A DNA stretch of 64,000 nucleotides from Candidatus Magasanikbacteria bacterium GW2011_GWA2_56_11 (lineage in GTDB: Bacteria; Patescibacteriota; Patescibacteriia; Magasanikbacterales; UBA922), in the NCBI GenBank assembly GCA_001004885.1, contig LCRX01000006.1:35079-99078 (forward strand), in the 5' to 3' direction. This document shows, piece by piece, positions 14-52,330 of the stretch (its first letter is position 1; every line of letters begins with the position of its first letter). Both the position numbers and the translations under genes were made by a program. The notes beneath the pieces were generated by a model that saw only the letters and a list, made by a program, of their open reading frames with translations, was not told the DNA's origin and searched no databases.

Positions 14-775
14 ATGCAGGACTTTTTACACACCACCATCCGCGCGGCCGGGGCGATCGCCCGCGATTATTTCGTCCGCGGCGTTACGCACTCCGAGAAA
101 ACCAGCGTGGCCGATCTTTTGACCGAGGCCGACGTGGCCGTGAGCGACTATTTGATCGCCCAAATCCAGGCCAACTACCCCGACCACCAGATCCACTCCG
201 AAGAGCGCGCCGCGGATATCAACCCGGGCGCCCGGTACGAGTGGGTCATTGACCCGATCGACGGCACGCGTAATTTCGCTCTGGGCATTCCGTTTTGGGC
301 GCCGCTGGTCGCCGTGATCAAGGACGGCAAGCCGTTTTTGGCCGCTATTTTCAATCCCATGAGCGACCAGCTGTTTTCGGCTGCCCAAGGTGGAGGAGCC
401 TATCTCAACGGCCAGCGAATTCAGGTAAACGGCGTCGACACTCTTGAGCATGGCTTTGGGGTAATTTACCGCCGGTCGGGGTTTCCCCGGGTAGAGAGGT
501 ATATCCGCGCCATGGACGAGCTCAACCGCGCCTCCACGACTTGGCTTCATAATTACGGGAGCATGGTGGCGGCCGCCCATCTTGCCTCGGGCGGAATTGA
601 CTTCTATTTGTCGAACTCCGGTTTTGACCATGACTTACTGGCTCCGGCTCTTATCTGTTCCGAGGCCGGCGCCGTTGTTACCGACGCGGATGGCAATCCC
701 TGGACGCGCGAGCACCACGATATCGTCATTGCCAATCCGAGGCTGCATCCCAAAGTACTAGCTTTGCTCAAATAA
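14..775 (+). CDS. inositol monophosphatase family protein (SuhB/IMPase-like)
   Basis: 253-aa ORF with an ATG start; it has the WVIDPIDGT metal-binding motif and the overall pattern of the IMPase/FBPase fold. Confidence 0.8.
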   Translation: MQDFLHTTIRAAGAIARDYFVRGVTHSEKTSVADLLTEADVAVSDYLIAQIQANYPDHQIHSEERAADINPGARYEWVIDPIDGTRNFALGIPFWAPLVAVIKDGKPFLAAIFNPMSDQLFSAAQGGGAYLNGQRIQVNGVDTLEHGFGVIYRRSGFPRVERYIRAMDELNRASTTWLHNYGSMVAAAHLASGGIDFYLSNSGFDHDLLAPALICSEAGAVVTDADGNPWTREHHDIVIANPRLHPKVLALLK

Positions 776-789
776 GTTTTCTTTCGGGT

Positions 790-3699
790 ATGGAGAAATA
801 CAATCCGCAAGCGATAGAAAAGAAGTGGCAGGAGTACTGGGACCGTTGCCAGACTTTTGCCGTTTCCGAAGATCAGGCCAAGGAAAAATTTTACGGTCTG
901 ATTGAGTTTCCCTACCCCAGCGGCGCCGGGTTGCACGTCGGCCACCCGCGTTCCTACACCGCCATGGACGTGATTTGCCGCCAAAAGCGGATGCAAGGGA
1001 AAAACGTGCTTTACCCGATCGGCTTCGATTCTTTTGGCCTGCCGACGGAAAATTTCGCGATCAAGACCGGCCGGCCGCCGGCCGAGATCACGGCCGAAAA
1101 CATCGCCACTTTCACGCGTCAGCTTAAGAGTCTCGGTTTCAGTTTCGATTGGTCGCGCGCGGTAACCACGAGCGAACCGGAATATTACCGGTGGACGCAA
1201 TGGATTTTTTTGCAGCTCTACAAGCACGGCCTGGCCTACAAAACCAACCAGCCGATCAATTGGTGTCCGAAGGACAAGATCGGTCTGGCCAACGAAGAGG
1301 TCGTGGACGGCAAGTGCGAGCGCTGCGGCGCCGTGGTGGAAAAGCGCAACAAAGAACAGTGGATGCTCGCCATCACCAAGTACGCGGACCAACTTCTGGA
1401 GGGGCTAAAAGAAGTCGACTACATTGAACGGGCCAAAATTCAGCAGGAGAACTGGATCGGACGAAGCGAGGGCGCGCTTATTACCTTTACGATTCCCTGT
1501 TTTTGCTGCCCGGACCGGCCGCGAACGCCGGGCGCGGTCGGCTGCGCCGAAGATCGCACGCTCACGGTGTTTTCCACCCGGCCGGATACCCTGTTTGGCG
1601 CGACCTACGCGGTCGTGTCGCCGGAGCATCCCGTCATCGCGCCACTACAGGCGAAAATTGAAAATTGGGACGAGGTAAAAGCCTACATCGAAGCCGCCAA
1701 GCGCAAGACCGATATCGAACGGACCGAGCTGCAGAAAGAAAAAACTGGCCTGGAACTGAAAGGCATTAAGGCTATCAATCCGGCGAACGGCGAGGCGATC
1801 CCGGTCTGGGTCGCGGACTACGTGCTCGGCCATTACGGCACTGGCGCCATTATGGCCGTGCCCGCGCACGACGAGCGCGACTTTGAGTTCGCGAGGAAGT
1901 TCGGTTTGCCCGTTAAATACGTGGTCGCCCCTTTCTTTTTGACCGCCGAGGGCCGCGACGCTGTTCGCAGCGACAAGCCGACGGTACGCCGGACAACGGT
2001 ATATGCTTTCGTAAAACACTGGAGCGAAGACAAGTACCTGTGCCTGGACTGGACGAAATTTGGCTGGCACTCCGGGATAATCGGCGGGATCGAGGACGGC
2101 GAGGATCCGGAAACGGCGGCCCGGCGCGAGATTCGCGAGGAAACCGGCTACCAAAACGTCCGCCTGGTACGCCGGGTCGACGAGGAAGTCCATAACCATT
2201 ATTTTGCCGCCCACAAAGACGAAAATCGCTATGCTGTCGGCCGCGGTCTGCTCTTTGTTTTAGAGAACGATGAGCGTGAACCGACCAAGGCGGACGAGAC
2301 ACAGAATCACGAAGCGGTGTGGGTGGAGGGGCGGGAGATGGAAAAATTCCTCAATTTGAATGTCTACGAGTATTTGTGGAAAAGGCTCCAGGCGCCTCCG
2401 TCGGCCTTTGCCGGCGAGGGGATCGCCACCAACTCCGATTTTCTTGACGGTTTGTCCACGGCCGCGGCCAAAGAAAAAATCACGCGCTGGCTTGAAGAGA
2501 GGGGAGTCGGGCAGCGCCAGGTCAACTACAAGCTCCGCGACTGGGTCTTTTCGCGCCAGCGCTACTGGGGCGAGCCGATTCCGCTCGTACATTGCGCCAA
2601 TTGCGGCGGCTGGGTGCCGCTTCCGGAGGACCAGCTGCCCCTCACTCTTCCCACGGTCGAAAAGTATCAGCCGACCGATACCGGGGAATCGCCGCTCGCC
2701 GCGATGACCGACTGGGTGAACACCACCTGTCCAAAGTGCGGTGGCGCGGCGCGGCGCGAGACCGACACGATGCCGAACTGGGCCGGCTCGAGCTGGTACT
2801 TTTTGCGCTACTGCGATCCCAATAACGGCCGCTCTCTTGCCGACCCGGATAAGCTAAGATACTGGCTGCCGGTAGACTGGTACAACGGCGGCATGGAACA
2901 CACCGTGCTCCATCTGCTCTACTCGCGCTTTTGGCACCAGTTTTTGTACGACATCGGCGTCGTGCCGACGCGCGAGCCGTACGCCAAGCGCACCAGCCAC
3001 GGCATGATTCTCGCCAAAGGCGGCGAGAAGATGAGCAAATCCAGGGGCAATGTGGTCAACCCGGACGAAATGGTGGCCGAGTTCGGCGCGGACGCGCTCA
3101 GAACTTACATCATGTTCATGGGTCCGTTCGACCAGGCGGTGGAGTGGGACACGAACGGCCTCGTTGGCGTGCGGCGTTTTCTCGACAAAGTCTGGGGTTT
3201 GCAGTACCGGGTCGCTGACGACGCTCCGGATGATCGCGCCGACGAACGGCTGACGCATGTTACGGTTCGCCAGATCACGAACGATATCGATCAGATGCGT
3301 TTCAACACGTGCGTGTCCCAGCTCATGATTTTTACCAACCAGCTCGCTTCCGGCGAGCGGACCATAAAGCGTGAGTACTTTGAAAAGTTGGTTTTATTGG
3401 TCTCGACTTTTGCGCCGCATCTGGGCGAAGAGTTGTGGTCGCGGCTGGGCCACACGAGCTCGGTGGCGCTCGCGCCCTGGCCGACATACGATGAGGCGCT
3501 CGCGGCGGCCGACGAGGTGACGATCGTGGTGCAGGTCAACGGCAAGGTGCGCGACGAATTTACGGTACCCGCGGAAACGCCCGAGGCCGAGGTGAAAGAG
3601 CGCGCGCTTACGAGTGAGCGGGTAGAGAAGTGGCTGGCCGGGAAAGAGCCCAAGAAGGTGATTTACGTGAAAGGGAAGTTGGTGTCGATCGTGCTGTAG
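790..3699 (+). CDS. leuS: leucyl-tRNA synthetase carrying an inserted NUDIX hydrolase domain
   Basis: 969-aa ORF with the class I HVGH motif (PSGAGLHVGHPRSY) and a KMSKS motif (KMSKSRGN). The editing-domain motifs (AVPAHDERDFEFA) are followed by an extra ~165 aa that contains a perfect NUDIX box, GGIEDGEDPETAARREIREETGY. Confidence 0.9.
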   Translation: MEKYNPQAIEKKWQEYWDRCQTFAVSEDQAKEKFYGLIEFPYPSGAGLHVGHPRSYTAMDVICRQKRMQGKNVLYPIGFDSFGLPTENFAIKTGRPPAEITAENIATFTRQLKSLGFSFDWSRAVTTSEPEYYRWTQWIFLQLYKHGLAYKTNQPINWCPKDKIGLANEEVVDGKCERCGAVVEKRNKEQWMLAITKYADQLLEGLKEVDYIERAKIQQENWIGRSEGALITFTIPCFCCPDRPRTPGAVGCAEDRTLTVFSTRPDTLFGATYAVVSPEHPVIAPLQAKIENWDEVKAYIEAAKRKTDIERTELQKEKTGLELKGIKAINPANGEAIPVWVADYVLGHYGTGAIMAVPAHDERDFEFARKFGLPVKYVVAPFFLTAEGRDAVRSDKPTVRRTTVYAFVKHWSEDKYLCLDWTKFGWHSGIIGGIEDGEDPETAARREIREETGYQNVRLVRRVDEEVHNHYFAAHKDENRYAVGRGLLFVLENDEREPTKADETQNHEAVWVEGREMEKFLNLNVYEYLWKRLQAPPSAFAGEGIATNSDFLDGLSTAAAKEKITRWLEERGVGQRQVNYKLRDWVFSRQRYWGEPIPLVHCANCGGWVPLPEDQLPLTLPTVEKYQPTDTGESPLAAMTDWVNTTCPKCGGAARRETDTMPNWAGSSWYFLRYCDPNNGRSLADPDKLRYWLPVDWYNGGMEHTVLHLLYSRFWHQFLYDIGVVPTREPYAKRTSHGMILAKGGEKMSKSRGNVVNPDEMVAEFGADALRTYIMFMGPFDQAVEWDTNGLVGVRRFLDKVWGLQYRVADDAPDDRADERLTHVTVRQITNDIDQMRFNTCVSQLMIFTNQLASGERTIKREYFEKLVLLVSTFAPHLGEELWSRLGHTSSVALAPWPTYDEALAAADEVTIVVQVNGKVRDEFTVPAETPEAEVKERALTSERVEKWLAGKEPKKVIYVKGKLVSIVL

Positions 3700-3857: not shown

Positions 3858-5303
3858 ATGAAAAATTTTTTCGGCAATAAAATTCAGTGGGTGTGGACAA
3901 TGCGTAAGTTAAATACGCCACTCTCCGTCTCGTCATACCTGCCTGGCGTCAAGATGGGACAAAAATATTTCGGATACCCGACGCATTTGAGCGCGACATG
4001 GTACGACCATGGTGACATTTATTTTGATAAAGAAGAAATCAAGGCCATCGCAGAATTTCTCAGATACAAAACGCGTGGCGACTCCGATTATCCAGACAAA
4101 ATCGCAAAACATATTTTTTCTTTCGCCAAAGAAATTGATCGCCAAACGCCTCCAAACACAAAAGGTAAGTCTTTACCGCAGCTTATCACGCTTTTCAAGA
4201 AAGAGCAGAAACTATTTTTGCAAATGATCGGTTTCATGAGCTACCGCGGTTCAGTGCAAATGGGCGATATTTTGCGGGAGCAGCTTGAAACTATTTTGAC
4301 GTACCGCCTCGGAGAAAAGCACAAACTAAACCAATTTGGGCAATATATCGAAACGCTCTCATATCCGTACCACGAAAGCATTATTGCCGAAGAGAAAAAA
4401 AATATTCTGCGCCTGGCAAGCGGTTTCAAGAATTTGACGAAAGTAAAACAGGAACAAGCGGTTCATGTCTACTGGAAGAAATATGAATGGTTGGCTTACC
4501 ATTGGTTTGTGGGGGCGCCACCGAACGAAAAACAGCTGAAAGACCGGATTGAAAAACTTGCGCCAACTGCCAAAAAAGAACTGGTCGCTCTGGCGGAGCT
4601 CCAAAAAGAGAACGAAGAAAAGGTTAGAACCGCCGTTCACGACCTCGATCTGAATGACAAGGAGAAAAAAGTTGTGAGGCAATACCGCGCGTGGTTATTT
4701 CTAAGAACATTCGTAAAAGACAATATTAATAAGGCGAGCTATAAACTTTTGCCTATCCTGAACGCGATGGGGGAATCTTTCGGCATAGAATCCAAACTAA
4801 TGCCCTATTTATCGCTAGACGAAATTCACGCGCTCGCCCAATTATCGCGCCAAGAAGTAAAAAAACTCATTACTGAACGGCGCGGAGGGTTTAGCGCGGG
4901 TATTGTGGACAACAAATTTGCTTTTCAGGGATTTGACAAAAAAGTTTCCTCGGAGCGGAAAGGCGACGAACAACACGTCAAAGGTTCAATCGCATTTCGG
5001 GGCAAAATTTCCGGCGTCGCCAAAGTTTTGCTTTCGCCACAAGAACAACATGATTTGAAAAAGGGAGAAATTCTAGTGACCCCAATGACCACGCCCGACT
5101 TACTGCCGGCAATGGAACGAGCCGCGGCGTTCGTAACCGACGAGGGCGGCATTACTTGCCACGCGGCTATTGTCGCGCGTGAGATGAAAAAGCCCTGCAT
5201 TATCGGAACAAGAACGGCCACCAAACAAATCCATAGCGGAGACACAATAGAGGTTGACGCGGAAAATGGGGTAGTCAATATTCTCGATAGAGCCAATTTT
5301 TAA
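3858..5303 (+). CDS. PEP-utilizing enzyme mobile (phosphohistidine) domain protein; N-terminal ~380 aa of unknown function
   Basis: The C-terminus has the GGITCHAAIVAREMKKPCIIG phosphohistidine-domain signature. The gene is AT-rich compared with its flanks. Confidence 0.55.
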   Translation: MKNFFGNKIQWVWTMRKLNTPLSVSSYLPGVKMGQKYFGYPTHLSATWYDHGDIYFDKEEIKAIAEFLRYKTRGDSDYPDKIAKHIFSFAKEIDRQTPPNTKGKSLPQLITLFKKEQKLFLQMIGFMSYRGSVQMGDILREQLETILTYRLGEKHKLNQFGQYIETLSYPYHESIIAEEKKNILRLASGFKNLTKVKQEQAVHVYWKKYEWLAYHWFVGAPPNEKQLKDRIEKLAPTAKKELVALAELQKENEEKVRTAVHDLDLNDKEKKVVRQYRAWLFLRTFVKDNINKASYKLLPILNAMGESFGIESKLMPYLSLDEIHALAQLSRQEVKKLITERRGGFSAGIVDNKFAFQGFDKKVSSERKGDEQHVKGSIAFRGKISGVAKVLLSPQEQHDLKKGEILVTPMTTPDLLPAMERAAAFVTDEGGITCHAAIVAREMKKPCIIGTRTATKQIHSGDTIEVDAENGVVNILDRANF

Positions 5304-5315
5304 CATGACGGTACT

Positions 5316-5747
5316 ATGGCAGAATTACCAGATGAAAACTCAAAGCGGTTCATCGCCGTCCTTAATAAAAAAGTTGAGCCGGGTCGTGCCATGAACGCGC
5401 TTGGCCACATGGCAGCCGGTCTCGCGGGTGGCTCTGGAAAAGCGGATGAAATGTGCTTCCTGCAATACGAAGACAAAAATGGCGGCGTTCATCCAAACAT
5501 CTCGCACTATCCGTTCATTGTCCTAAAAGCGGGCAATTCAAATAAAATTCGTATAGTTAGAAGTGAGTGCCTAACCCGCGGTATTCCATTTTCAGATTTT
5601 ACAAGCACAATGACAATTGGTACGTCTCAAGAACAGCAGAACGCTACCCTCTCGACCCCGGAAGAAGAACTTGAATACTGTGGTATCGTCATGTTCGGCT
5701 CGACGCAAGAATTAAGAGAATTTACCGGCAAGTTTTCGTTGTATTAA
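5316..5747 (+). CDS. hypothetical protein, DUF2000-like
   Basis: 143-aa ORF in the low-GC island; family assignment is from memory of NALGHMAAGL-type motifs. Confidence 0.4.
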   Translation: MAELPDENSKRFIAVLNKKVEPGRAMNALGHMAAGLAGGSGKADEMCFLQYEDKNGGVHPNISHYPFIVLKAGNSNKIRIVRSECLTRGIPFSDFTSTMTIGTSQEQQNATLSTPEEELEYCGIVMFGSTQELREFTGKFSLY

Positions 5748-5748
5748 T

Positions 5749-6375
5749 ATGGAACATTTAGCTCTTATTGGTACAGTCACAGTCATTCATTTATTGGCCG
5801 TCATCAGTCCGGGGCCCGATTTTATTATGGCGTGCAGGAATTCGTTGACCTATTCACGCAAAACTGGTATCTGGACAGCAATCGGTTTTGGCCTCGGAAT
5901 TGCAACTCACATTTTTTATTCCCTGGCCGGCCTCGCTTTGATTATTTCCAGGTCTATTCTGCTGTTCAGCGTCATCAAATTTTTAGGGGCCGGATATTTG
6001 ATTTACATCGGTCTTAAATCTGTTTTATCGAAATCCTCAAAAATTGAACTCGGCGAAGAGCGAAAGAAGGAAGATATTACTCGCTTTGCGGCAGTCAGGA
6101 TTGGATTTTTAACAAATATGCTTAACCCAAAAGTGACTTTATTTTTTTTAAGTCTATTTACGTTCGTCATATCTCCAAAGACGCCGCTGCTGATCATGGG
6201 AATAGTAAGCGCAATTATGATAATCGACACAATGCTCTGGTTTTCGCTTGTCGCTGTATTTCTTACCCAGAAAAGAACCCGCTCAATTTTTGAAAGATTT
6301 CAGGGTGTCTTCAATAAAACATTAGGCGGACTGCTCATTGCTTTGGGCGTCAGGGTTGCCTTGCCTGAAAAATAA
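5749..6375 (+). CDS. LysE/RhtB family amino-acid exporter
   Basis: 208 aa with six hydrophobic segments. The N-terminal HLLAVISPGPDF motif is typical of the LysE/RhtB family. Confidence 0.75.
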   Translation: MEHLALIGTVTVIHLLAVISPGPDFIMACRNSLTYSRKTGIWTAIGFGLGIATHIFYSLAGLALIISRSILLFSVIKFLGAGYLIYIGLKSVLSKSSKIELGEERKKEDITRFAAVRIGFLTNMLNPKVTLFFLSLFTFVISPKTPLLIMGIVSAIMIIDTMLWFSLVAVFLTQKRTRSIFERFQGVFNKTLGGLLIALGVRVALPEK

Positions 6376-6446
6376 AATTGCGAATATTTTTAAAGCCGAT
6401 CAAAACACCGCCTCACGTGGTATTCGTCATTTAATAAAATGACAGA

Positions 6447-7073
6447 ATGGAGAGCCTCGTATTAATCAGCACAATTCTGGCCGTACACGTCTTTGCTTGG
6501 TTTACTCCCGGTCCACTTTTTGTATTAATCATCAGAAATTCGTTGGTGTATTCGCGCCAGTCTGGAATCTGGACAGCGGTCGGAATAGCAATCGGCAACT
6601 TTATCCATATTACATACTCTGTGGCTGGAATGGCGTTTATCATTTCCGCGTCGCCAGTTACTTTCAGTGTCATCAAGTTTTTGGGCGTCGGTTATCTGGC
6701 GTACCTCGGAATCAAAACTTTCCTAATTAAAGCGGAAACACAAAAGGGGGCACCATGTTCTGGCGCACACAAAGATTTTTCTCCTTTCCAGACGGCAAAA
6801 ATTGGCTTCTTAGCAAACATTCTTAGTCCTAAAGCATCGCTTTTTTTTGCAAGCATATTCGCGACAGTAATAGCGTCCGGCTCTCCGTTTTGGGTTGTTA
6901 TATTTTTGTGGATCGCAATGCCACTCAATTCCTTTATCATGGCTTCCATACTTTCCATTTTTTTCACACAAAATAAAGTCAGAAGTTTTTACGCCAACTA
7001 TCAACACATGGTGAACCAACTACTCGGCGTGCTATTGCTTGCGCTGGCAATAATGATCGCGATCCACAAATAG
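6447..7073 (+). CDS. LysE/RhtB family amino-acid exporter (tandem paralog)
   Basis: 208 aa and colinear with the preceding gene (HVFAWFTPGPLF motif), which indicates a tandem duplication. Confidence 0.75.
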   Translation: MESLVLISTILAVHVFAWFTPGPLFVLIIRNSLVYSRQSGIWTAVGIAIGNFIHITYSVAGMAFIISASPVTFSVIKFLGVGYLAYLGIKTFLIKAETQKGAPCSGAHKDFSPFQTAKIGFLANILSPKASLFFASIFATVIASGSPFWVVIFLWIAMPLNSFIMASILSIFFTQNKVRSFYANYQHMVNQLLGVLLLALAIMIAIHK

Positions 7074-7149
7074 AAAATTAGGGTTTAAGCGGTGGAAAAA
7101 CCCGCAATGGAAGGAAGTGGCAACGTATTAACTATTCCTCCCATGAATG

Positions 7150-7178
7150 AAAACAAAAAACACTTTTGGTAAAGTGTT
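7150..7178 (-). terminator. rho-independent terminator for the minus-strand gene 7254-7517
   Basis: Hairpin AACACTTT-ACCA-AAAGTGTT on the minus strand, followed by a U-tract (an A-run at 7151-7160 on the + strand). Confidence 0.55.
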
Positions 7179-7253
7179 GTGCCGCCCCTCACCGTGAACC
7201 ACGTTGGTCCAGATGAGGGGCGATGCGGGACCGTTGGCGCCGGCGTGGTCGCG

Positions 7254-7517
7254 CTAGTCGATGATGGCGTGTATGACCCCGACGCCGTACTGCAGCAGAG
7301 CCTCGAGGCCGATCCGCAGGTGGTCGGGGTCGCTCATCACAACCTCGTGGAACTCGCGCGCGAGTTCGTGGTCCTGCATGATGCCCTCGACCGCGCTGCC
7401 GGATAAGACGCCGTTGGACGACTGCTGCTCGGCACGTGCGAGGATCCCCACAGCCAGATTTCCCAGCCGATCCTTGTTGTCCTCCACGAACTTCCTGACG
7501 TTCGCCAGTGCGTACAT
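7254..7517 (-). CDS. hypothetical small protein (87 aa)
   Basis: AAGGAGGTG Shine-Dalgarno 7 nt upstream of the ATG, a terminator downstream, and a TTGACG -35-like box upstream. Confidence 0.55.
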   Translation of the reverse strand: MYALANVRKFVEDNKDRLGNLAVGILARAEQQSSNGVLSGSAVEGIMQDHELAREFHEVVMSDPDHLRIGLEALLQYGVGVIHAIID

Positions 7518-7811
7518 AGCACACCTCCTTAGGTCGGGTTTCTGTCATCCTTTTATCACATCAATCGATGGCCGTCAAGGGGCGGAACTTCTGCTATACG
7601 CGAAGATTAAGCGAAATTTTAAAATCCCATCTCATAAATATGAATTATGAATGCGGGCTTTTCATTTCCCTTCCTCCCGGCTCTGACCCGGAGGGAGTTT
7701 TTTATTTGCCGGAAATGTTATGAAAATTTTATCTCCGGCCTGCTAGACTAGTTTGGGGCCGGGGCGAGCAGCGGGCGGCTGGCCAGATAAATCGGGCTTT
7801 GACCGCGGCAT

Positions 7812-9299
7812 ATGAAAGATCGTCTTCTCCGGATAGCCAACTCGAAAAGCCGCGTTTTTTTCGCTCTCTGTTTATGCTTTCTGGCCGGGGTTTTCGCGGC
7901 CTCGCTTGGCAGCGGCAACGCCGCCCTTCGGGGGCCCTGTCTCACCCTATTGTTCTGTCTCGCCGCCCTGCTTTTTGTCGGTTGGCGTTACGTTCTGCCC
8001 CGTTTGGCCATCATCGGCGTCATCGCCTTCATCGCCGGCAGTCTGCGCTACGCGCAGGCTTACCCGGACGAGCACGCCTACGGAGTACGCAATTTAGCCG
8101 GCCAAACCGTCACGCTCGCGGGCTTTGTAGCCGCGGAGCCCGACATCCGCCTAAGCGATCAGCGGCTTATCGTGAACGTATCGGATCCGCCCGGACGGGT
8201 TTACCTGAAAATTCCTCTCTATCCCCGCTATGCTTACGGGGACAGAGTAAAGATAACCTGCCGGCTAAGACGCCCCGAAGCGATGGCCACTGATAACGGC
8301 CGGGTTTTTCGCTACGATATGTACCTGGCCCGCCTGGGCGTGTTTGCCCTCTGTGAAAATCCGGTAATAGCCAAAATCGGCGGCGGGGAGGGCAGCCGGG
8401 CGCGGGCCGAGATTCTGCGCGCCAAGGCGCTAGTCGCGGGGAAAGTCGAACTTTTGTGGAGCGAGCCGCACGCGAGCTTTATGGCCGGGCTTTTGTACGG
8501 CTATCGCGGCGGTCTGGGCAGCCTGCAGGAGCAGTTTAACCTAACCGGCGTTACGCACATCGTGGCCGTATCTGGCTACAACATTACCATCATAGCGACG
8601 ATTCTCATTTCCCTGTGCACTTATCTCTATATTCCGCGGCAGAGGGCTTTCTGGTTCGTAGTCGCCGGTATTGTCCTGTTTGTCGCTTTCACCGGCGCCT
8701 CGGCCTCGGTGGTCCGGGCGGGAATAATGGGGATAATCGCGCTGCTCGGCAGGCAACTGGGCCGGCCGTCGCGCAGCGGCAATGTGCTTGTTCTGGCGGC
8801 CGCCGTTATGGTCGCGCACAACCCGTTCGTTTTGCTCTCTGATGCCGGGTTCCAACTGTCTTTTCTTTCGACGCTGGGTCTGGTTTACATCAATCCGCTG
8901 ATTAAAAACCGGTTTCTGGCGGTACCGGGGATGTCGGGCCTGAATGAAACTCTCACGAGTACCTTGTCGGCTATTATCGCTACCTGCCCCCTCATTCTCT
9001 ACCAGTTTGGCCGTCTGTCATTGGTGGCTCCGGTGGTAAATATACTTATTCTTTGGCTTATACCCTGGCTCATGCTTCTCGGAGCGGCGGCCGTGGCGGT
9101 AAGTTTTTTTTCCGGTTTTTTGGGCCAGATCGCGGCCGGCATCGCCTGGGTCGGACTCGAGTACATTATTGTCGTGGTGCGCTGGTTTGCCGCCTGGCCG
9201 TGGGCGTCCATATCCGTCGGGTTGCCCTGGTGGGGGATGGCGGCAATGTATTGTGGTATGCTATACCTAGCCGGTAAATATTTCGGTAAGGGACGATAA
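7812..9299 (+). CDS. comEC: ComEC/Rec2 competence protein, membrane core only (DUF4131 plus competence domain)
   Basis: 495-aa polytopic membrane protein with the typical ComEC channel region; it lacks the C-terminal MBL domain. Confidence 0.75.
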   Translation: MKDRLLRIANSKSRVFFALCLCFLAGVFAASLGSGNAALRGPCLTLLFCLAALLFVGWRYVLPRLAIIGVIAFIAGSLRYAQAYPDEHAYGVRNLAGQTVTLAGFVAAEPDIRLSDQRLIVNVSDPPGRVYLKIPLYPRYAYGDRVKITCRLRRPEAMATDNGRVFRYDMYLARLGVFALCENPVIAKIGGGEGSRARAEILRAKALVAGKVELLWSEPHASFMAGLLYGYRGGLGSLQEQFNLTGVTHIVAVSGYNITIIATILISLCTYLYIPRQRAFWFVVAGIVLFVAFTGASASVVRAGIMGIIALLGRQLGRPSRSGNVLVLAAAVMVAHNPFVLLSDAGFQLSFLSTLGLVYINPLIKNRFLAVPGMSGLNETLTSTLSAIIATCPLILYQFGRLSLVAPVVNILILWLIPWLMLLGAAAVAVSFFSGFLGQIAAGIAWVGLEYIIVVVRWFAAWPWASISVGLPWWGMAAMYCGMLYLAGKYFGKGR

Positions 9300-49626: not shown

Positions 49627-50046
49627 ATGAAAAGTGTCATGATTTTCGGGACCTTTGACATCCTTCATCCCGGACACATCGCGCTTTTCAAACAAGCTAG
49701 GGGCTATGGCGACCATCTCACAGTCGTTCTCGCCCGCGACGTTACGGTCCGAAAAGTAAAAGGCAGTTTGCCGTTGCATGATGAAAAACAGCGCCGCGAA
49801 ATCCTCGCTCATATTGATCTGATCGACCGCGTCGTGATGGGGGACACGGATAATGCTTACCGCATTATCAAGCGCGTCCGGCCCCGTGTAATCGCCCTGG
49901 GCTATGACCAGACAGCCTTTGTCGACCGGCTCGAAGAGCAGCTCAAAGAGTTCAAACTGCCGGCCAAAATCGTCCGGCTCAAACCGCATCGCGAGAATAA
50001 GCATAAGACTCATAAAATTAAACGTCTCCTCGCGCAGCAACTATGA
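49627..50046 (+). CDS. cytidylyltransferase-like nucleotidyltransferase (RibL/TagD family)
   Basis: FGTFDILHPGH matches the (H/T)xGH motif. Confidence 0.6.
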   Translation: MKSVMIFGTFDILHPGHIALFKQARGYGDHLTVVLARDVTVRKVKGSLPLHDEKQRREILAHIDLIDRVVMGDTDNAYRIIKRVRPRVIALGYDQTAFVDRLEEQLKEFKLPAKIVRLKPHRENKHKTHKIKRLLAQQL

Positions 50047-51080
50047 AACGCAAGTTCCTGATCGCCACCTCTAACCCGGGAAAATTCAGCGAAATGCAGG
50101 CTTTTTTGGCCAGCCTACCCTTTGATTTCGTGGGTCTGCCAGATTTGCCGGCAGCTCCGCCCCCTCCCGAGGAAATCGGGCCGACGCTTGAGGACAATGC
50201 CCTGGTTAAGGCGCGCTATTATGCCCAAAAAACCGGATTAACGGCGATCGCGGATGACGCCGGTCTGTTCGTTGAGGCTCTTGGCGGCTGGCCCGGAGTT
50301 AAAAGCGCGCGTTTTGCGCCGACCAACGAGGAGCGCCTGGAGATTATGAGGCAGAAAGCTGCCGCCCTAATAGAAAGCGAACGTTCCGCATTATTCCGCG
50401 CGGCCGTCGCTGTGGTAGACCCGGCAACGGGTACGTCGTTCGTGGCGTCCGGGGAAACTCAGGGCACGATTATTCCCGAAGGGCGGGGAACGCCCCGGTT
50501 CGGTTACGAATCGGTTTTTGAAGTGGCGGCGCTCCGCAAAACTTACGCCGAACTTTCGCTGGCGGAGAAAAACGGTGTCAGCCACCGCGGCCGGGCCTTG
50601 ATCAAGATTAAATATCATCTTTCAAATACCTACGGCTCAAAACATATTGTCGTGCCGTACGCCCTTATAGTAAAGGACGGCCAGGTGCTGATGAATCGCC
50701 GGAATGAGCCGCACCGCCAGGAGTTTCACGGCAAGTGGGAGTTTCCCGGCGGTAAGGTGGAGTTTGGAGAGACCATGCACGGCAATTTGAAGCGCGAAGT
50801 ATTCGAGGAAGTCGGCTACCAGGTGGAGATCGTAAAGGCGCTCCAGCACATTGCCGTCGAAAGCCAAGCCTATCCTACTTTCAGTTATCAAGTTTTTCTC
50901 GTGCCGTATGTCTGCCGCGTGGTCGGGGGAGAGGTCAAGCTAAGCGACAGCGAGGTGCTCGAGACCGGCTGGTTTGATCCGGATCGGGCGCTCGACTACG
51001 AGATGATCGGCAAAAATGACAGTATGTACCGGCAGATACTGCCCGAATTTAAGGAAATTATCGCCGCCTATAATCTTTAG
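50043..51080 (+). CDS. rdgB: RdgB/HAM1 non-canonical NTP pyrophosphatase fused to a C-terminal NUDIX hydrolase
   Basis: Ham1 fold (LIATSNPGKFSEM ... DDAGL ... GFGYESVF), followed by the NUDIX box GKVEFGETMHGNLKREVFEEVGY. Confidence 0.8.
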   Translation: MKRKFLIATSNPGKFSEMQAFLASLPFDFVGLPDLPAAPPPPEEIGPTLEDNALVKARYYAQKTGLTAIADDAGLFVEALGGWPGVKSARFAPTNEERLEIMRQKAAALIESERSALFRAAVAVVDPATGTSFVASGETQGTIIPEGRGTPRFGYESVFEVAALRKTYAELSLAEKNGVSHRGRALIKIKYHLSNTYGSKHIVVPYALIVKDGQVLMNRRNEPHRQEFHGKWEFPGGKVEFGETMHGNLKREVFEEVGYQVEIVKALQHIAVESQAYPTFSYQVFLVPYVCRVVGGEVKLSDSEVLETGWFDPDRALDYEMIGKNDSMYRQILPEFKEIIAAYNL

Positions 51081-51088
51081 GAACGTGT

Positions 51089-52330
51089 ATGCTCGACATA
51101 AAATATATCCGCGGCCACGCCGCCGAGATCAAGGAAAATTGCGCCCGGCGTCGCGTCCAGGCGGACATTGACCGTCTTCTCGAGCTTGATGAAAAGCGGC
51201 GCGGCGAACTTCAGGATATCGAAAAGCTGCGCGCCGAGCGCAATCAGGGCTCCAAGGGCAAGCCGGACCCGGACGAAATCTCCCGCCTGCGCGAAATCGG
51301 AGAACAGATCAAGGACCTCGAAGCCGGCTTGGTTCCGGTTGAAGCGGAGTTTACGGAATTGATGGCCCAGATTCCGAATTTGACCCACCCCGAATCGCCC
51401 GTGGGCGGCGAGGATGATTACCGCGTTGTGGCCACTGCCGGCGAGCCGCCCCAGTTCGGTTTCGCGCCCCAGGACCACGAAACTCTCCTGACCGCGCTTG
51501 ACCTGGTGGATTTCGAGCGCGGAGCCAAAGTGGCCGCGGCAAAGTTTTATTTTTACAAAAATGACATGGTCCGCCTCAACCAGGCGCTCCTGAACTACGG
51601 CATAGATATAGTTACGGCTCACGGCTTTACCCTCATGGAGACTCCGGACGTCGCCAAGAACCAGGTACTCTCGGGGATCGGCTTCAACCCGCGCGGGCAG
51701 GAAACACAGGTATACTCCATCGAAAATACCGACTTGAGTCTCATCGGCACGGCCGAGATTACCGTCGGCGGCTATCATGCCGACGAAATTCTGGATTTAA
51801 GCGCCGGGCCGAAGAAATACGTCGCCCTATCACACTGCTTCCGCACCGAGGCCGGCGCCTACGGCCGCGAGAGCAAGGGTTTGTACCGTGTCCATCAGTT
51901 TACCAAACTCGAGATGTTTATCTATTGCCGACCGGAGGAGAGCGAGGCGCGGCATCAGGAATTATTGGCGATTGAGCGGGAGATCTGCGATCGCCTGGAG
52001 CTGCCGTACCGCGTGATTGACATCGCCGCCGGCGATCTCGGCGGCCCGGCCTACCGCAAGTTCGACATTGAGGCCTGGATGACCATGAAAAACGATTACG
52101 GCGAGATTACGAGCGCCAGCAACTGCACCGACTACCAGGCGCGGCGGCTGAATATCCGCTATCGCACCGCTGCCGGAGAAACTGAATTCGTGCATACCCT
52201 GAACGGCACCGCCGTGGTGCTGAGCCGTTTCCCGATCGCCATTGTCGAAAATTACCAGCAGGCCGACGGCACGATCCGGGTGCCGGAGGTGCTGGTCAAA
52301 TACCTGGGTAAAAAAGTGATCGGAGTTTAA
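51089..52330 (+). CDS. serS: seryl-tRNA synthetase
   Basis: N-terminal coiled-coil arm and class II motifs (FRTEAGAYGRESKGLYRVHQF; GTAVVLSRFPIA). Confidence 0.9.
   Translation: MLDIKYIRGHAAEIKENCARRRVQADIDRLLELDEKRRGELQDIEKLRAERNQGSKGKPDPDEISRLREIGEQIKDLEAGLVPVEAEFTELMAQIPNLTHPESPVGGEDDYRVVATAGEPPQFGFAPQDHETLLTALDLVDFERGAKVAAAKFYFYKNDMVRLNQALLNYGIDIVTAHGFTLMETPDVAKNQVLSGIGFNPRGQETQVYSIENTDLSLIGTAEITVGGYHADEILDLSAGPKKYVALSHCFRTEAGAYGRESKGLYRVHQFTKLEMFIYCRPEESEARHQELLAIEREICDRLELPYRVIDIAAGDLGGPAYRKFDIEAWMTMKNDYGEITSASNCTDYQARRLNIRYRTAAGETEFVHTLNGTAVVLSRFPIAIVENYQQADGTIRVPEVLVKYLGKKVIGV

What the first reader, a model, noticed from the sequence alone, without database searches (positions are those of the whole stretch)
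1915..2400. Complete NUDIX hydrolase domain inserted into leucyl-tRNA synthetase
Between the editing-domain motifs (AVPAHDERDFEFA) and the resumption of the catalytic core (KLRDWVFSRQRYWGEPIP), LeuRS carries ~165 extra residues. They include a canonical NUDIX box, GGIEDGEDPETAARREIREETGY, which fits GX5EX7REUXEEXGU exactly. A catalytically competent-looking pyrophosphohydrolase embedded in an aaRS is unusual. It could act on Ap4A or other aaRS side-products, on misactivated adenylates, or serve a regulatory role.
Basis: seen in the sequence. Interest (0 to 1): 0.7.

Follow-up and report, generated by a model that had tools for sequence, protein, structure and literature searches.

The report
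Nudix hydrolase cassette inside leucyl-tRNA synthetase
This candidate-phyla-radiation bacterium's leucyl-tRNA synthetase carries a complete, probably active Nudix pyrophosphatase domain in a loop of its editing domain; the architecture is common in these tiny bacteria but apparently unstudied, and the module is swapped, lost and duplicated far faster than the enzyme around it.

Summary
ORF 790..3699 is a complete bacterial-type LeuRS (969 aa) with intact HIGH, KMSKS and editing motifs. Residues 380-537 (nt 1927..2400) are a whole Nudix domain inserted inside the CP1 editing domain. It scores above Pfam's threshold, has a canonical Nudix box, and folds confidently as a Nudix domain.

It is not unique. 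The protein is the LeuRS of Candidatus Magasanikbacteria GW2011_GWA2_56_11. At least 100 protein clusters (50% identity) carry the same module in LeuRS, across Patescibacteria and a few Bacilli/Mycoplasmatota genomes. I found no paper describing it.

New findings:
- The module belongs to an uncharacterised Nudix sub-family that also exists as 160-aa stand-alone proteins.
- The same sub-family sits in a class II ProRS of DPANN-like archaea.
- Core catalytic residues are kept in 87% of LeuRS copies, and dN/dS is about 0.13.
- LeuRS cores 93-95% identical can carry no module or very different modules, with sharp DNA boundaries.
- Relatives add Ham1, HAD and alpha/beta-hydrolase domains at other loops.

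Best reading: an accessory, active pyrophosphohydrolase coupled to aaRS chemistry. Ap4A/Ap4N clearance is the leading but untested substrate hypothesis.

The parts
790..3699 (+). leuS: complete bacterial-type leucyl-tRNA synthetase, 969 aa, hosting the Nudix module
   Evidence: ORF. TIGR00396 scores 996.8 bits vs cut-off 548.4. It is 100% identical to P0020, 'Leucyl-tRNA synthetase [Candidatus Magasanikbacteria bacterium GW2011_GWA2_56_11]'. The AF2 model has pLDDT 90.3 and matches LeuRS PDB entries with TMt 0.76-0.82.
934..945 (+). HIGH signature (HVGH, aa 49-52) of the synthetic site
   Evidence: Sequence and regex. Invariant H49, G51 and H52 in alignment A2.
1447..1926 (+). CP1 editing domain, part before the insert (aa 220-379)
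   Evidence: Pfam tRNA-synt_1_2 matches aa 220-381, profile positions 1-142 of 185. Aligns to T. thermophilus LeuRS up to residue 362.
1495..1554 (+). Cys/Pro-rich variable loop (aa 236-255) at the start of CP1. This is 'site A', where relatives carry Ham1 or extra Nudix modules.
   Evidence: The only low-confidence segment of the model, aa 246-252. Site A insertions in relatives are shown.
1573..1590 (+). Thr-rich editing-site motif STRPDT (aa 262-267)
   Evidence: Regex. R264 and T267 are invariant in A2.
1864..1881 (+). Editing-site motif AHDERD (aa 359-364) with the conserved Asp
   Evidence: Regex. H360, D361, R363 and D364 are invariant in A2.
1927..2400 (+). Inserted Nudix module (aa 380-537), colinear with a whole stand-alone Nudix protein
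2083..2151 (+). Nudix box GGIEDGEDPETAARREIREETGY (aa 432-454), on the predicted loop-helix-loop (helix 440-452)
   Evidence: E438, R446, E447, E450 and E451 are intact in 183 of 211 LeuRS-embedded modules.
2212..2229 (+). Sub-family signature HKDENR (aa 475-480; H475, K476, N479, R480), preceded by aromatic Y471/F472 at +17/+18 from the box
   Evidence: K, N and R are invariant and H is nearly invariant in A1. The motif is shared by the ProRS-embedded modules. Positions.
2401..2532 (+). C-terminal part of CP1 after the insert (aa 538-581), leading into RDWVFSRQRYWG
   Evidence: Aligns to T. thermophilus residues 375 onward. Conserved in insert-free relatives.
3028..3042 (+). KMSKS loop (aa 747-751)
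   Evidence: Regex. K747, M748, S749 and K750 are invariant in A2.

Best explanation
Residues 380-537 of this LeuRS are an autonomous, catalytically competent Nudix pyrophosphohydrolase domain inserted in a surface loop of the CP1 editing domain. The LeuRS is otherwise complete and functional. The module belongs to an uncharacterised Nudix sub-family (signature CLxW...W..IIGG...REIxEETGY...[YF][FY]AxHKxxNR...W) that associates specifically with aminoacyl-tRNA synthetases of ultra-small prokaryotes. It is found in Patescibacteria LeuRS (at three or more loops, in one to three copies) and in DPANN-type ProRS, and it also exists as a free 160-aa protein. It is an accessory activity, not part of aminoacylation or editing: near-identical LeuRS without it exist. 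It is kept by purifying selection while present, yet it is episodically lost, duplicated and replaced by recombination. Most likely mechanism (inferred, not shown): the domain hydrolyses adenylylated by-products that any aaRS makes when enzyme-bound aminoacyl-AMP reacts with ATP/NTP or polyphosphates, such as Ap4A, Ap4N, Ap3A and p4A. It would do this in cis and in 1:1 stoichiometry with the enzyme that makes them, as a built-in side-product or alarmone scavenger. Shown: domain identity, boundaries, fold, residue conservation, distribution, selection, cassette turnover. Inferred: catalytic activity, dispensability, coupling to aaRS chemistry, substrate.
Against: No biochemical data exist for any member, and no solved or characterised homologue is closer than E of about 1e-4. 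Every specific NCBIfam Nudix equivalog falls far below its cut-off, so the substrate is open. Structural neighbours of Nudix domains are poor predictors of substrate. 13% of LeuRS modules and 3 of 5 ProRS modules have lost E438 and/or R446, so catalysis is not universally required. Rapid replacement of the cassette is not what a simple housekeeping scavenger predicts. Stand-alone homologues are mostly not next to aaRS genes; their neighbours are an alpha/beta hydrolase, UMPH-1, CYTH and PRPP synthetase. I had no coordinates or PAE, so the position of the Nudix active site relative to the synthetic site, the editing site and the tRNA path is unknown.
Confidence: 0.45

Rival explanations
1. Generic nucleotide house-cleaning or salvage enzyme that merely rides on leuS. 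The Nudix (like the Ham1, HAD and alpha/beta-hydrolase inserts in relatives) hydrolyses non-canonical or surplus nucleotides. It sits in a permissive loop of a constitutively expressed essential gene in a streamlined genome, with no mechanistic coupling to LeuRS.
For: Relatives carry other house-cleaning-type hydrolases in LeuRS loops: Ham1/ITPase, HAD_2 and Ser_hydrolase. Neighbours of stand-alone homologues are nucleotide-metabolism genes: UMPH-1 5'-nucleotidase, CYTH, PRPP synthetase and a phosphoribosyltransferase. The module is easily lost.
Against: Random hitch-hiking does not predict that this one sub-family sits overwhelmingly in LeuRS, at three different loops, and again in an unrelated aaRS (ProRS) in another domain of life. 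No non-aaRS host appears among the best 150 clusters. The same window already encodes a Ham1-MutT-type fusion.
Confidence: 0.2
2. RNA-end enzyme. The module acts on an RNA terminus, for example removal of 5' pyrophosphate, NAD or Np4A caps (as RppH, NudC and AvrM14 do), or removal of a modification on the tRNA acceptor end. It would be placed on CP1 because CP1 handles the tRNA 3' end.
Against: Mature tRNA has a 5' monophosphate. The ProRS insertion lies between the anticodon-binding and C-terminal domains, not in an editing domain. RppH equivalog scores are far below cut-off, 28.9 vs 116. There is no geometric evidence.
Confidence: 0.1
3. Non-catalytic module. The Nudix fold serves as a ligand sensor or structural/tRNA-binding lobe (as in NrtR or the MutY C-terminal domain) that modulates LeuRS.
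For: 28 of 211 LeuRS modules and P0207/P0290/P0291 (ProRS) have substitutions at E438/R446 or a one-residue deletion in the box. Tandem copies exist in which only one has a strict box, e.g. P0142.
Against: 87% keep all five core residues, and the REUXEE glutamates are nearly always kept even in altered copies. The window's copy is canonical. The module can be absent from near-identical LeuRS, so it is not a structural requirement.
Confidence: 0.1
4. Conflict-driven or selfish exchangeable cassette. The module (and the other hydrolase inserts) takes part in an arms race, for example detoxifying a nucleotide toxin or signal aimed at translation. Alternatively it spreads by recombination as a semi-selfish in-frame element.
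For: Cassette replacement has sharp boundaries between leuS genes that are 88-93% identical at the DNA level. Module distance does not correlate with core distance (Spearman -0.21). At least 7 presence/absence changes are needed for 9 insert-free sequences, and copy number varies.
Against: No mobility genes and no flanking repeats of note. Module GC3 matches its host. No member of the sub-family was found in IMG/VR viral contigs. Purifying selection is strong when the module is co-inherited.
Confidence: 0.12
5. Artefact: a chimeric assembly or a mis-joined ORF.
For: None. It was considered only because the genome is a metagenome-assembled genome.
Against: The ORF is uninterrupted and in frame. 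The same architecture recurs in more than 100 independent clusters and in long contigs from many samples. The full-length model is confident.
Confidence: 0.01

Closest known systems
Bacterial leucyl-tRNA synthetase (T. thermophilus 1H3N/2BTE, E. coli 4AQ7/5OMW)
   Same: Same enzyme family, with the same synthetic and editing motifs. The profile match has E=7.5e-216 to 1h3n, and fold TMt is 0.76-0.80.
   Different: Those enzymes have a 12-25-residue loop where this protein has a 158-residue Nudix domain.
Nudix (di)nucleoside-polyphosphate hydrolases: T. thermophilus Ndx1 (Ap6A), M. tuberculosis Rv2985, Aquifex Ap4A hydrolase 3I7U, lupin Ap4A hydrolase 1F3Y
   Different: Only 17-21% identity. 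The sub-family motifs (CLxW, HKxxNR) are not shared. No family-level sequence match reaches a curated cut-off. These known enzymes are free-standing.
E. faecalis MutT/nudix family protein 2AZW (structural-genomics entry, function unknown)
   Different: 19% identity and profile E=8e-4 only. It is uncharacterised, so it gives no functional transfer.
NadM-Nudix bifunctional NMN adenylyltransferase/ADP-ribose pyrophosphatase (2QJT)
   Different: There the Nudix domain is joined end to end with the adenylyltransferase rather than inserted in a loop (my recollection of 2QJT; not shown by any tool result). It is an ADP-ribose pyrophosphatase of a different sub-family, and the partner is not an aaRS.
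IleRS with an N-acetyltransferase domain (NCBIfam NF040702 ileS_w_GNAT)
   Same: A curated example of a bacterial class Ia aaRS carrying an extra catalytic domain (listed).
   Different: Different aaRS and a different added fold (GNAT). No curated LeuRS-with-Nudix family appears among the 25 best NCBIfam matches listed.
Ham1-Nudix fusion in the same window (50043..51080), next to serS
   Same: Another Nudix domain in this genome, fused to a house-cleaning NTPase and adjacent to an aaRS gene.
   Different: It is a MutT-type Nudix (also matching NUDIX_4). Similarity to the LeuRS module is limited to the box (E=0.002 over 33 residues).

Membership tests
Nudix hydrolase superfamily (PF00293) | Profile match above the curated gathering score | tested here: met
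   42.6 bits (whole protein) and 46.2 bits (insert alone), against a cut-off of 21.1.
Nudix hydrolase superfamily (PF00293) | Nudix box GX5EX7REUXEEXGU | tested here: met
   G432-x5-E438-x7-R446-E447-I448-x-E450-E451-x-G453-Y454. The last U is Tyr, which is conserved in the sub-family.
Nudix hydrolase superfamily (PF00293) | Alpha/beta/alpha sandwich fold with the box on a loop-helix-loop | tested here: met
Nudix hydrolase superfamily (PF00293) | Divalent-cation-dependent hydrolysis of a nucleoside diphosphate linked to X | not testable with these tools
   Needs enzyme assays.
Bacterial LeuRS (TIGR00396 leuS_bact) | Equivalog HMM above cut-off | tested here: met
   996.8 bits against 548.4.
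Bacterial LeuRS (TIGR00396 leuS_bact) | HIGH and KMSKS signatures; CP1 with Thr-rich motif and conserved Asp | tested here: met
   HVGH at 49, KMSKS at 747, STRPDT at 262 and AHDERD at 359. These are invariant in 68 relatives.
Asymmetric Ap4A / ApnA Nudix hydrolases | Tyr (aromatic) 16-18 residues after the Nudix box (Dunn et al. 1999, my own knowledge) | tested here: met
   Y471 at +17 and F472 at +18. The family always has Y/F at these two positions. This feature has weak discriminating power.
Asymmetric Ap4A / ApnA Nudix hydrolases | Sequence-family membership (RppH/NudH-type equivalogs NF001938, NF001936) | tested here: not met
   28.9 bits against cut-off 116, and 22.8 against 118. The match covers the box only.
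Asymmetric Ap4A / ApnA Nudix hydrolases | Hydrolysis of Ap4A to ATP + AMP | not testable with these tools
   Needs assays.
MutT 8-oxo-dGTPase | Equivalog HMM (TIGR00586, NF008044) | tested here: not met
   13.6 against 97.9, and 17.8 against 148.
ADP-ribose pyrophosphatase | Pro 15-16 residues after the box (my own knowledge); equivalog HMMs | tested here: not met
   Positions +15/+16 are N and H. NF008003 scores 15.2 against 248, and TIGR00052 scores 19.6 against 79.55.
NADH pyrophosphatase NudC | SQPWPFPxS motif after the box | tested here: not met
   Motif absent. NF001299 scores 14.7 against 158.
CoA pyrophosphatase | Upstream LLTxR..FPGG motif (my own knowledge) | tested here: not met
   FPGG is absent from the insert.

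The most novel reading that the evidence does not exclude
Aminoacyl-tRNA synthetases of ultra-small symbiotic prokaryotes (Patescibacteria LeuRS, DPANN ProRS) serve as docking platforms for a dedicated, recombinationally exchangeable set of hydrolase cassettes. The set comprises this Nudix sub-family plus Ham1, HAD and alpha/beta serine hydrolase, at three defined loops. Together they would form a previously unrecognised aaRS-coupled system for destroying adenylylated by-products or alarmones (Ap4N and relatives), or toxic nucleotides aimed at translation. Cassette swapping would reflect diversifying pressure rather than neutral drift.
Probability: 0.3. Interest if true: 0.8.

Novelty: new variant of a known kind. 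Interest (0 to 1): 0.62.

Why it matters
aaRSs are the main cellular source of Ap4A and related dinucleoside polyphosphates, whose roles are still debated. A natural fusion of a polyphosphate-type Nudix hydrolase to LeuRS, and independently to ProRS, would give a direct and testable link between synthesis and removal of these molecules. It would be an example of built-in side-product control in organisms with minimal genomes. LeuRS CP1 is also a drug target and a model for domain motions, and a 158-residue enzyme tolerated in its loop constrains models of CP1 movement. The cassette-like gain, loss and replacement inside an essential, universally conserved marker gene also matters for phylogenomics of Patescibacteria, because leuS is mosaic. 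It shows that catalytic domains can be shuffled within aaRSs on short timescales.

Tried and rejected
1. Uniqueness of the fusion: rejected, because it is widespread.
2. Assembly artefact: rejected.
3. Assignment to a known Nudix sub-family (MutT, ADPRase, NudC, CoAse, RppH, NudI, NudB): all below curated cut-offs or lacking the signature motifs.
4. A solved member of the sub-family: none. The best profile E-value is 6e-5, and 2azw is only a fold match.
5. Consistent adjacency of stand-alone homologues to leuS: found once (L001/L002). It was absent in four other contexts.
6. Vertical co-divergence of module and host: rejected. Mantel r=-0.09 and Spearman -0.21.
7. Many unrelated Nudix families occupying the loop: rejected. 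All 102 modules link at >=30% identity.
8. Mobile-element hallmarks (flanking repeats, deviant GC3): not found.
9. Viral carriers of the sub-family: only box-level hits.
10. Literature precedent: seven full-text searches and four papers checked gave nothing relevant. Brevet et al. 1989 is not held.
11. Geometry of the Nudix site relative to the LeuRS sites: could not be done, because model coordinates and PAE are not exposed and the afdb50 library was unavailable.
12. Prevalence within Patescibacteria could not be estimated without bias.
Full report
**1. What is in the sequence**

ORF 790..3699 (+) encodes a 969-aa protein. It is a bacterial-type leucyl-tRNA synthetase, scoring 996.8 bits on TIGR00396 against a cut-off of 548.4. 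It aligns end to end with T. thermophilus and E. coli LeuRS (E=7.5e-216). The HIGH (HVGH, aa 49) and KMSKS (aa 747) signatures are present. So are the two editing-site motifs, STRPDT (aa 262) and AHDERD (aa 359), and they are invariant in 68 relatives.

The alignment to T. thermophilus breaks between query 379 and 538, which correspond to Tth 362 and 375. Residues 380-537 (nt 1927..2400) are therefore extra. Pfam NUDIX matches this stretch above its gathering score (42.6 bits against 21.1, E=7.5e-11). The box GGIEDGEDPETAARREIREETGY sits at aa 432-454 (nt 2083..2151).

- The insert is 158 residues, a net gain of about 146-151 rather than 165.
- It lies inside CP1, since about 45 CP1 residues follow it before RDWVFSRQ.
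- The last box position is Tyr rather than an aliphatic residue.

**2. It is a whole, autonomous Nudix domain**

Searching with the insert alone returned stand-alone proteins of 158-164 aa. They are 41-48% identical over 90-98% of the query and colinear from first to last residue. The same search returned two LeuRS fragments with the same junction.

The rest of the model superposes on LeuRS structures with TMt 0.76-0.82.

**3. It is not unique**

The protein is identical to the LeuRS of Candidatus Magasanikbacteria bacterium GW2011_GWA2_56_11 (P0020). Of the 120 best LeuRS relatives, all with Patescibacteria names where named, about 105 have PF00293 on record. About 15 lack it, at 772-998 aa. 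The spacing between the AHDxRD and RDWxxSRQ motifs is 205-222 aa in carriers and 63-89 aa in non-carriers, and the insert is always in the same loop.

A scan of one genome per species found the fusion in Patescibacteria group, Saccharibacteria and Parcubacteria MAGs. It also found it in three low-GC MAGs titled Bacilli, Mycoplasmatota and Erysipelotrichaceae.

An exhaustive HMM search of 1.84 billion representative proteins found 123 clusters at E<=1e-30 and 349 at E<=1e-10. Of the best 150, 101 are LeuRS or LeuRS fragments and 33 are stand-alone. Most of the remaining 16 are further LeuRS fragments.

Seven literature searches and four papers checked gave no description of this architecture. 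No curated family specific to it appears among the NCBIfam matches listed.

**4. A Nudix sub-family tied to aaRSs**

The modules share a signature beyond the box: CLxW, a second Trp, IIGG, EETGY, [YF][FY]AxHKxxNR, and a late Trp.

Within LeuRS the module occurs at three loops:
- the start of CP1 ('site A', which in this window is the low-confidence Cys/Pro-rich loop at aa 236-255);
- the present site;
- a loop in the zinc-binding region around aa 644-656.

It occurs in up to three copies per protein (L008).

One of the best 150 clusters, P0207, is a class II prolyl-tRNA synthetase with the module between its anticodon-binding and C-terminal domains. Four more such ProRS exist (61-74% identical). 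Their insert-free relatives are named Nanoarchaeota or Woesearchaeota. The ProRS modules carry the same signature and are 37% identical to the window's module.

One stand-alone homologue lies 580 bp upstream of an insert-free leuS. Others lie next to an alpha/beta hydrolase, near UMPH-1 and CYTH genes, or near PRPP synthetase.

**5. Selection**

The five core box residues (E438, R446, E447, E450, E451) are all intact in 183 of 211 LeuRS-embedded modules. Altered copies mostly change E438 to Q and R446 to A/M/T, but keep the REUXEE glutamates.

For a pair sharing a co-inherited module (P0056/P0082), dN/dS is 0.13 for the module and 0.074 for the core. For P0051/P0073, synonymous sites are saturated and the module's dN (0.075) is lower than the core's (0.099). 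The module is therefore a selected, functional part of the protein.

**6. Cassette-like turnover (unexpected)**

In 68 aligned LeuRS there is no co-divergence of module and core (Mantel r=-0.09, Spearman -0.21). Presence or absence needs at least 7 changes for 9 insert-free sequences.

In one tight Magasanikbacteria clade (87-93% identical proteins) the loop shows four states:
- no insert (P0131);
- a 25-aa linker (P0114, P0136);
- one Nudix type (P0031);
- another Nudix type about 74% different (P0074).

At the DNA level the leuS flanks are 88-93% identical on both sides, with break points near nt 1090 and 1560-1585. Nothing between them aligns except a 49-nt patch at the box.

All 102 modules still belong to one family, linking by single linkage at >=30% identity. 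Module GC3 tracks its host gene, and no flanking repeats of note or viral homologues were found. The simplest reading is an old insertion followed by recombinational exchange, loss and duplication of the cassette. Why this happens is unexplained.

**7. Other hydrolase inserts**

Longer relatives carry further hydrolase domains:
- Ham1/ITPase, or a second Nudix, at site A;
- HAD_2 directly after the Nudix;
- an alpha/beta Ser_hydrolase after RDWxxSRQRYWGxPIP.

One protein of 1358 aa (P0124) has Nudix, HAD and Ser_hydrolase together.

The window itself also encodes a Ham1-MutT-type Nudix fusion (50043..51080) ending 9 bp before serS. Its Nudix is a different sub-family.

**8. Interpretation**

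Shown: a complete Nudix domain, intact catalytic residues, an intact host enzyme, wide distribution, association with two unrelated aaRSs, purifying selection, and rapid cassette turnover.

Inferred:
- The domain is an active pyrophosphohydrolase.
- It is accessory to aminoacylation, because near-identical LeuRS lack it.
- Its function is coupled to something class I LeuRS and class II ProRS share, namely ATP, aminoacyl-AMP, adenylylated by-products, or the tRNA acceptor end.

Nudix chemistry needs a pyrophosphate linkage, so Leu-AMP is an unlikely substrate. aaRSs are documented producers of Ap3-5N (PMC7705103). The structural neighbours lean towards polyphosphate substrates. I therefore rank cis-removal of Ap4A/Ap4N first, at modest confidence. 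The rivals are generic house-cleaning by hitch-hiking, an RNA-end activity, a non-catalytic role, and a conflict-driven cassette. They are listed with their evidence in the Rival explanations section.

**9. Novelty and score**

Both parts are known kinds. The fusion is present in public databases, annotated simply as LeuRS. As far as the held literature shows, it is undescribed as a biological entity and uncharacterised. I rate it a new variant of a known kind. Interest is about 0.6: the original 'unusual single case' reading is wrong, but the family-wide picture is more interesting than the single gene. That picture includes the aaRS-specific Nudix sub-family, the second host in DPANN ProRS, the multi-hydrolase LeuRS variants and the cassette exchange.

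Noticed in passing
window 50043..51080 (+) and 51089..52330 (+): A 345-aa fusion of a Ham1/ITPase domain (aa 6-190) with a MutT-type Nudix domain (aa 207-329) ends 9 bp before seryl-tRNA synthetase. This is a second Nudix-aaRS association in the same window, though the Nudix belongs to a different sub-family.
   Followed up: partly
relatives P0022, P0027, P0061, P0111, P0110, P0124, P0058, P0063: Patescibacteria LeuRS have three insertion hot spots, all holding hydrolase folds. Ham1 or an extra Nudix sits at the start of CP1. Nudix (sometimes followed by HAD_2) sits at this site. An alpha/beta Ser_hydrolase sits after RDWxxSRQRYWGxPIP. P0124 (1358 aa) has three inserted hydrolases.
   Followed up: partly
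P0207, P0290-P0293: The same Nudix sub-family is inserted between the anticodon-binding and C-terminal domains of a class II prolyl-tRNA synthetase. Its insert-free relatives are named Nanoarchaeota or Woesearchaeota (DPANN).
   Followed up: partly
window 1495..1554 (LeuRS aa 236-255): A Cys/Pro-rich loop (PCFCCPDRPRTPGAVGCAEDRT) is the only low-confidence part of the model. It coincides with the site where relatives carry Ham1 or extra Nudix modules.
   Followed up: no
L048 615..1604 and 4623..5042 (flanking the leuS of P0074): This leuS, which carries a different Nudix type, is flanked by an integrase-like gene (weak HTH_38, faint rve) and a PDDEXK_3 gene. The leuS neighbourhoods of three about-90%-identical genes (L048, L049, L050) are not syntenic.
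   Followed up: no
L044 1640..3006 and L045 1686..3052: The stand-alone Nudix homologue P0010 is followed within 9-33 bp by an alpha/beta hydrolase gene (Hydrolase_4/Abhydrolase_1/6). This is the same domain type that co-occurs with the Nudix in long LeuRS variants.
   Followed up: no
L008 5464..6468; P0140, P0141: Tandem Nudix modules occur within one LeuRS: two in L008 at this site, and three in P0140 and P0141. Some copies lack a strict Nudix box.
   Followed up: partly
L015, L016, L017: LeuRS-Nudix also occurs in low-GC (29-34%) MAGs titled Bacilli, Mycoplasmatota and Erysipelotrichaceae. This points to either horizontal transfer of leuS or a wider distribution than Patescibacteria.
   Followed up: no
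window about 3858..8000: There is a lower-GC stretch (0.45-0.48 against 0.54-0.58 elsewhere) just downstream of leuS. It encodes a 481-aa protein whose only Pfam match is a C-terminal PEP-utilizers mobile domain, a DUF2000 protein and a LysE-type translocator. It may be acquired DNA.
   Followed up: no
window 14..775 (+): An inositol-monophosphatase-family gene lies immediately upstream of leuS on the same strand, ending 15 bp before it.
   Followed up: no
L006 (whole contig, 6934 nt): The contig is an inverted duplicate of itself: LeuRS-Nudix reads forward and then in reverse complement. This is probably an assembly artefact.
   Followed up: no
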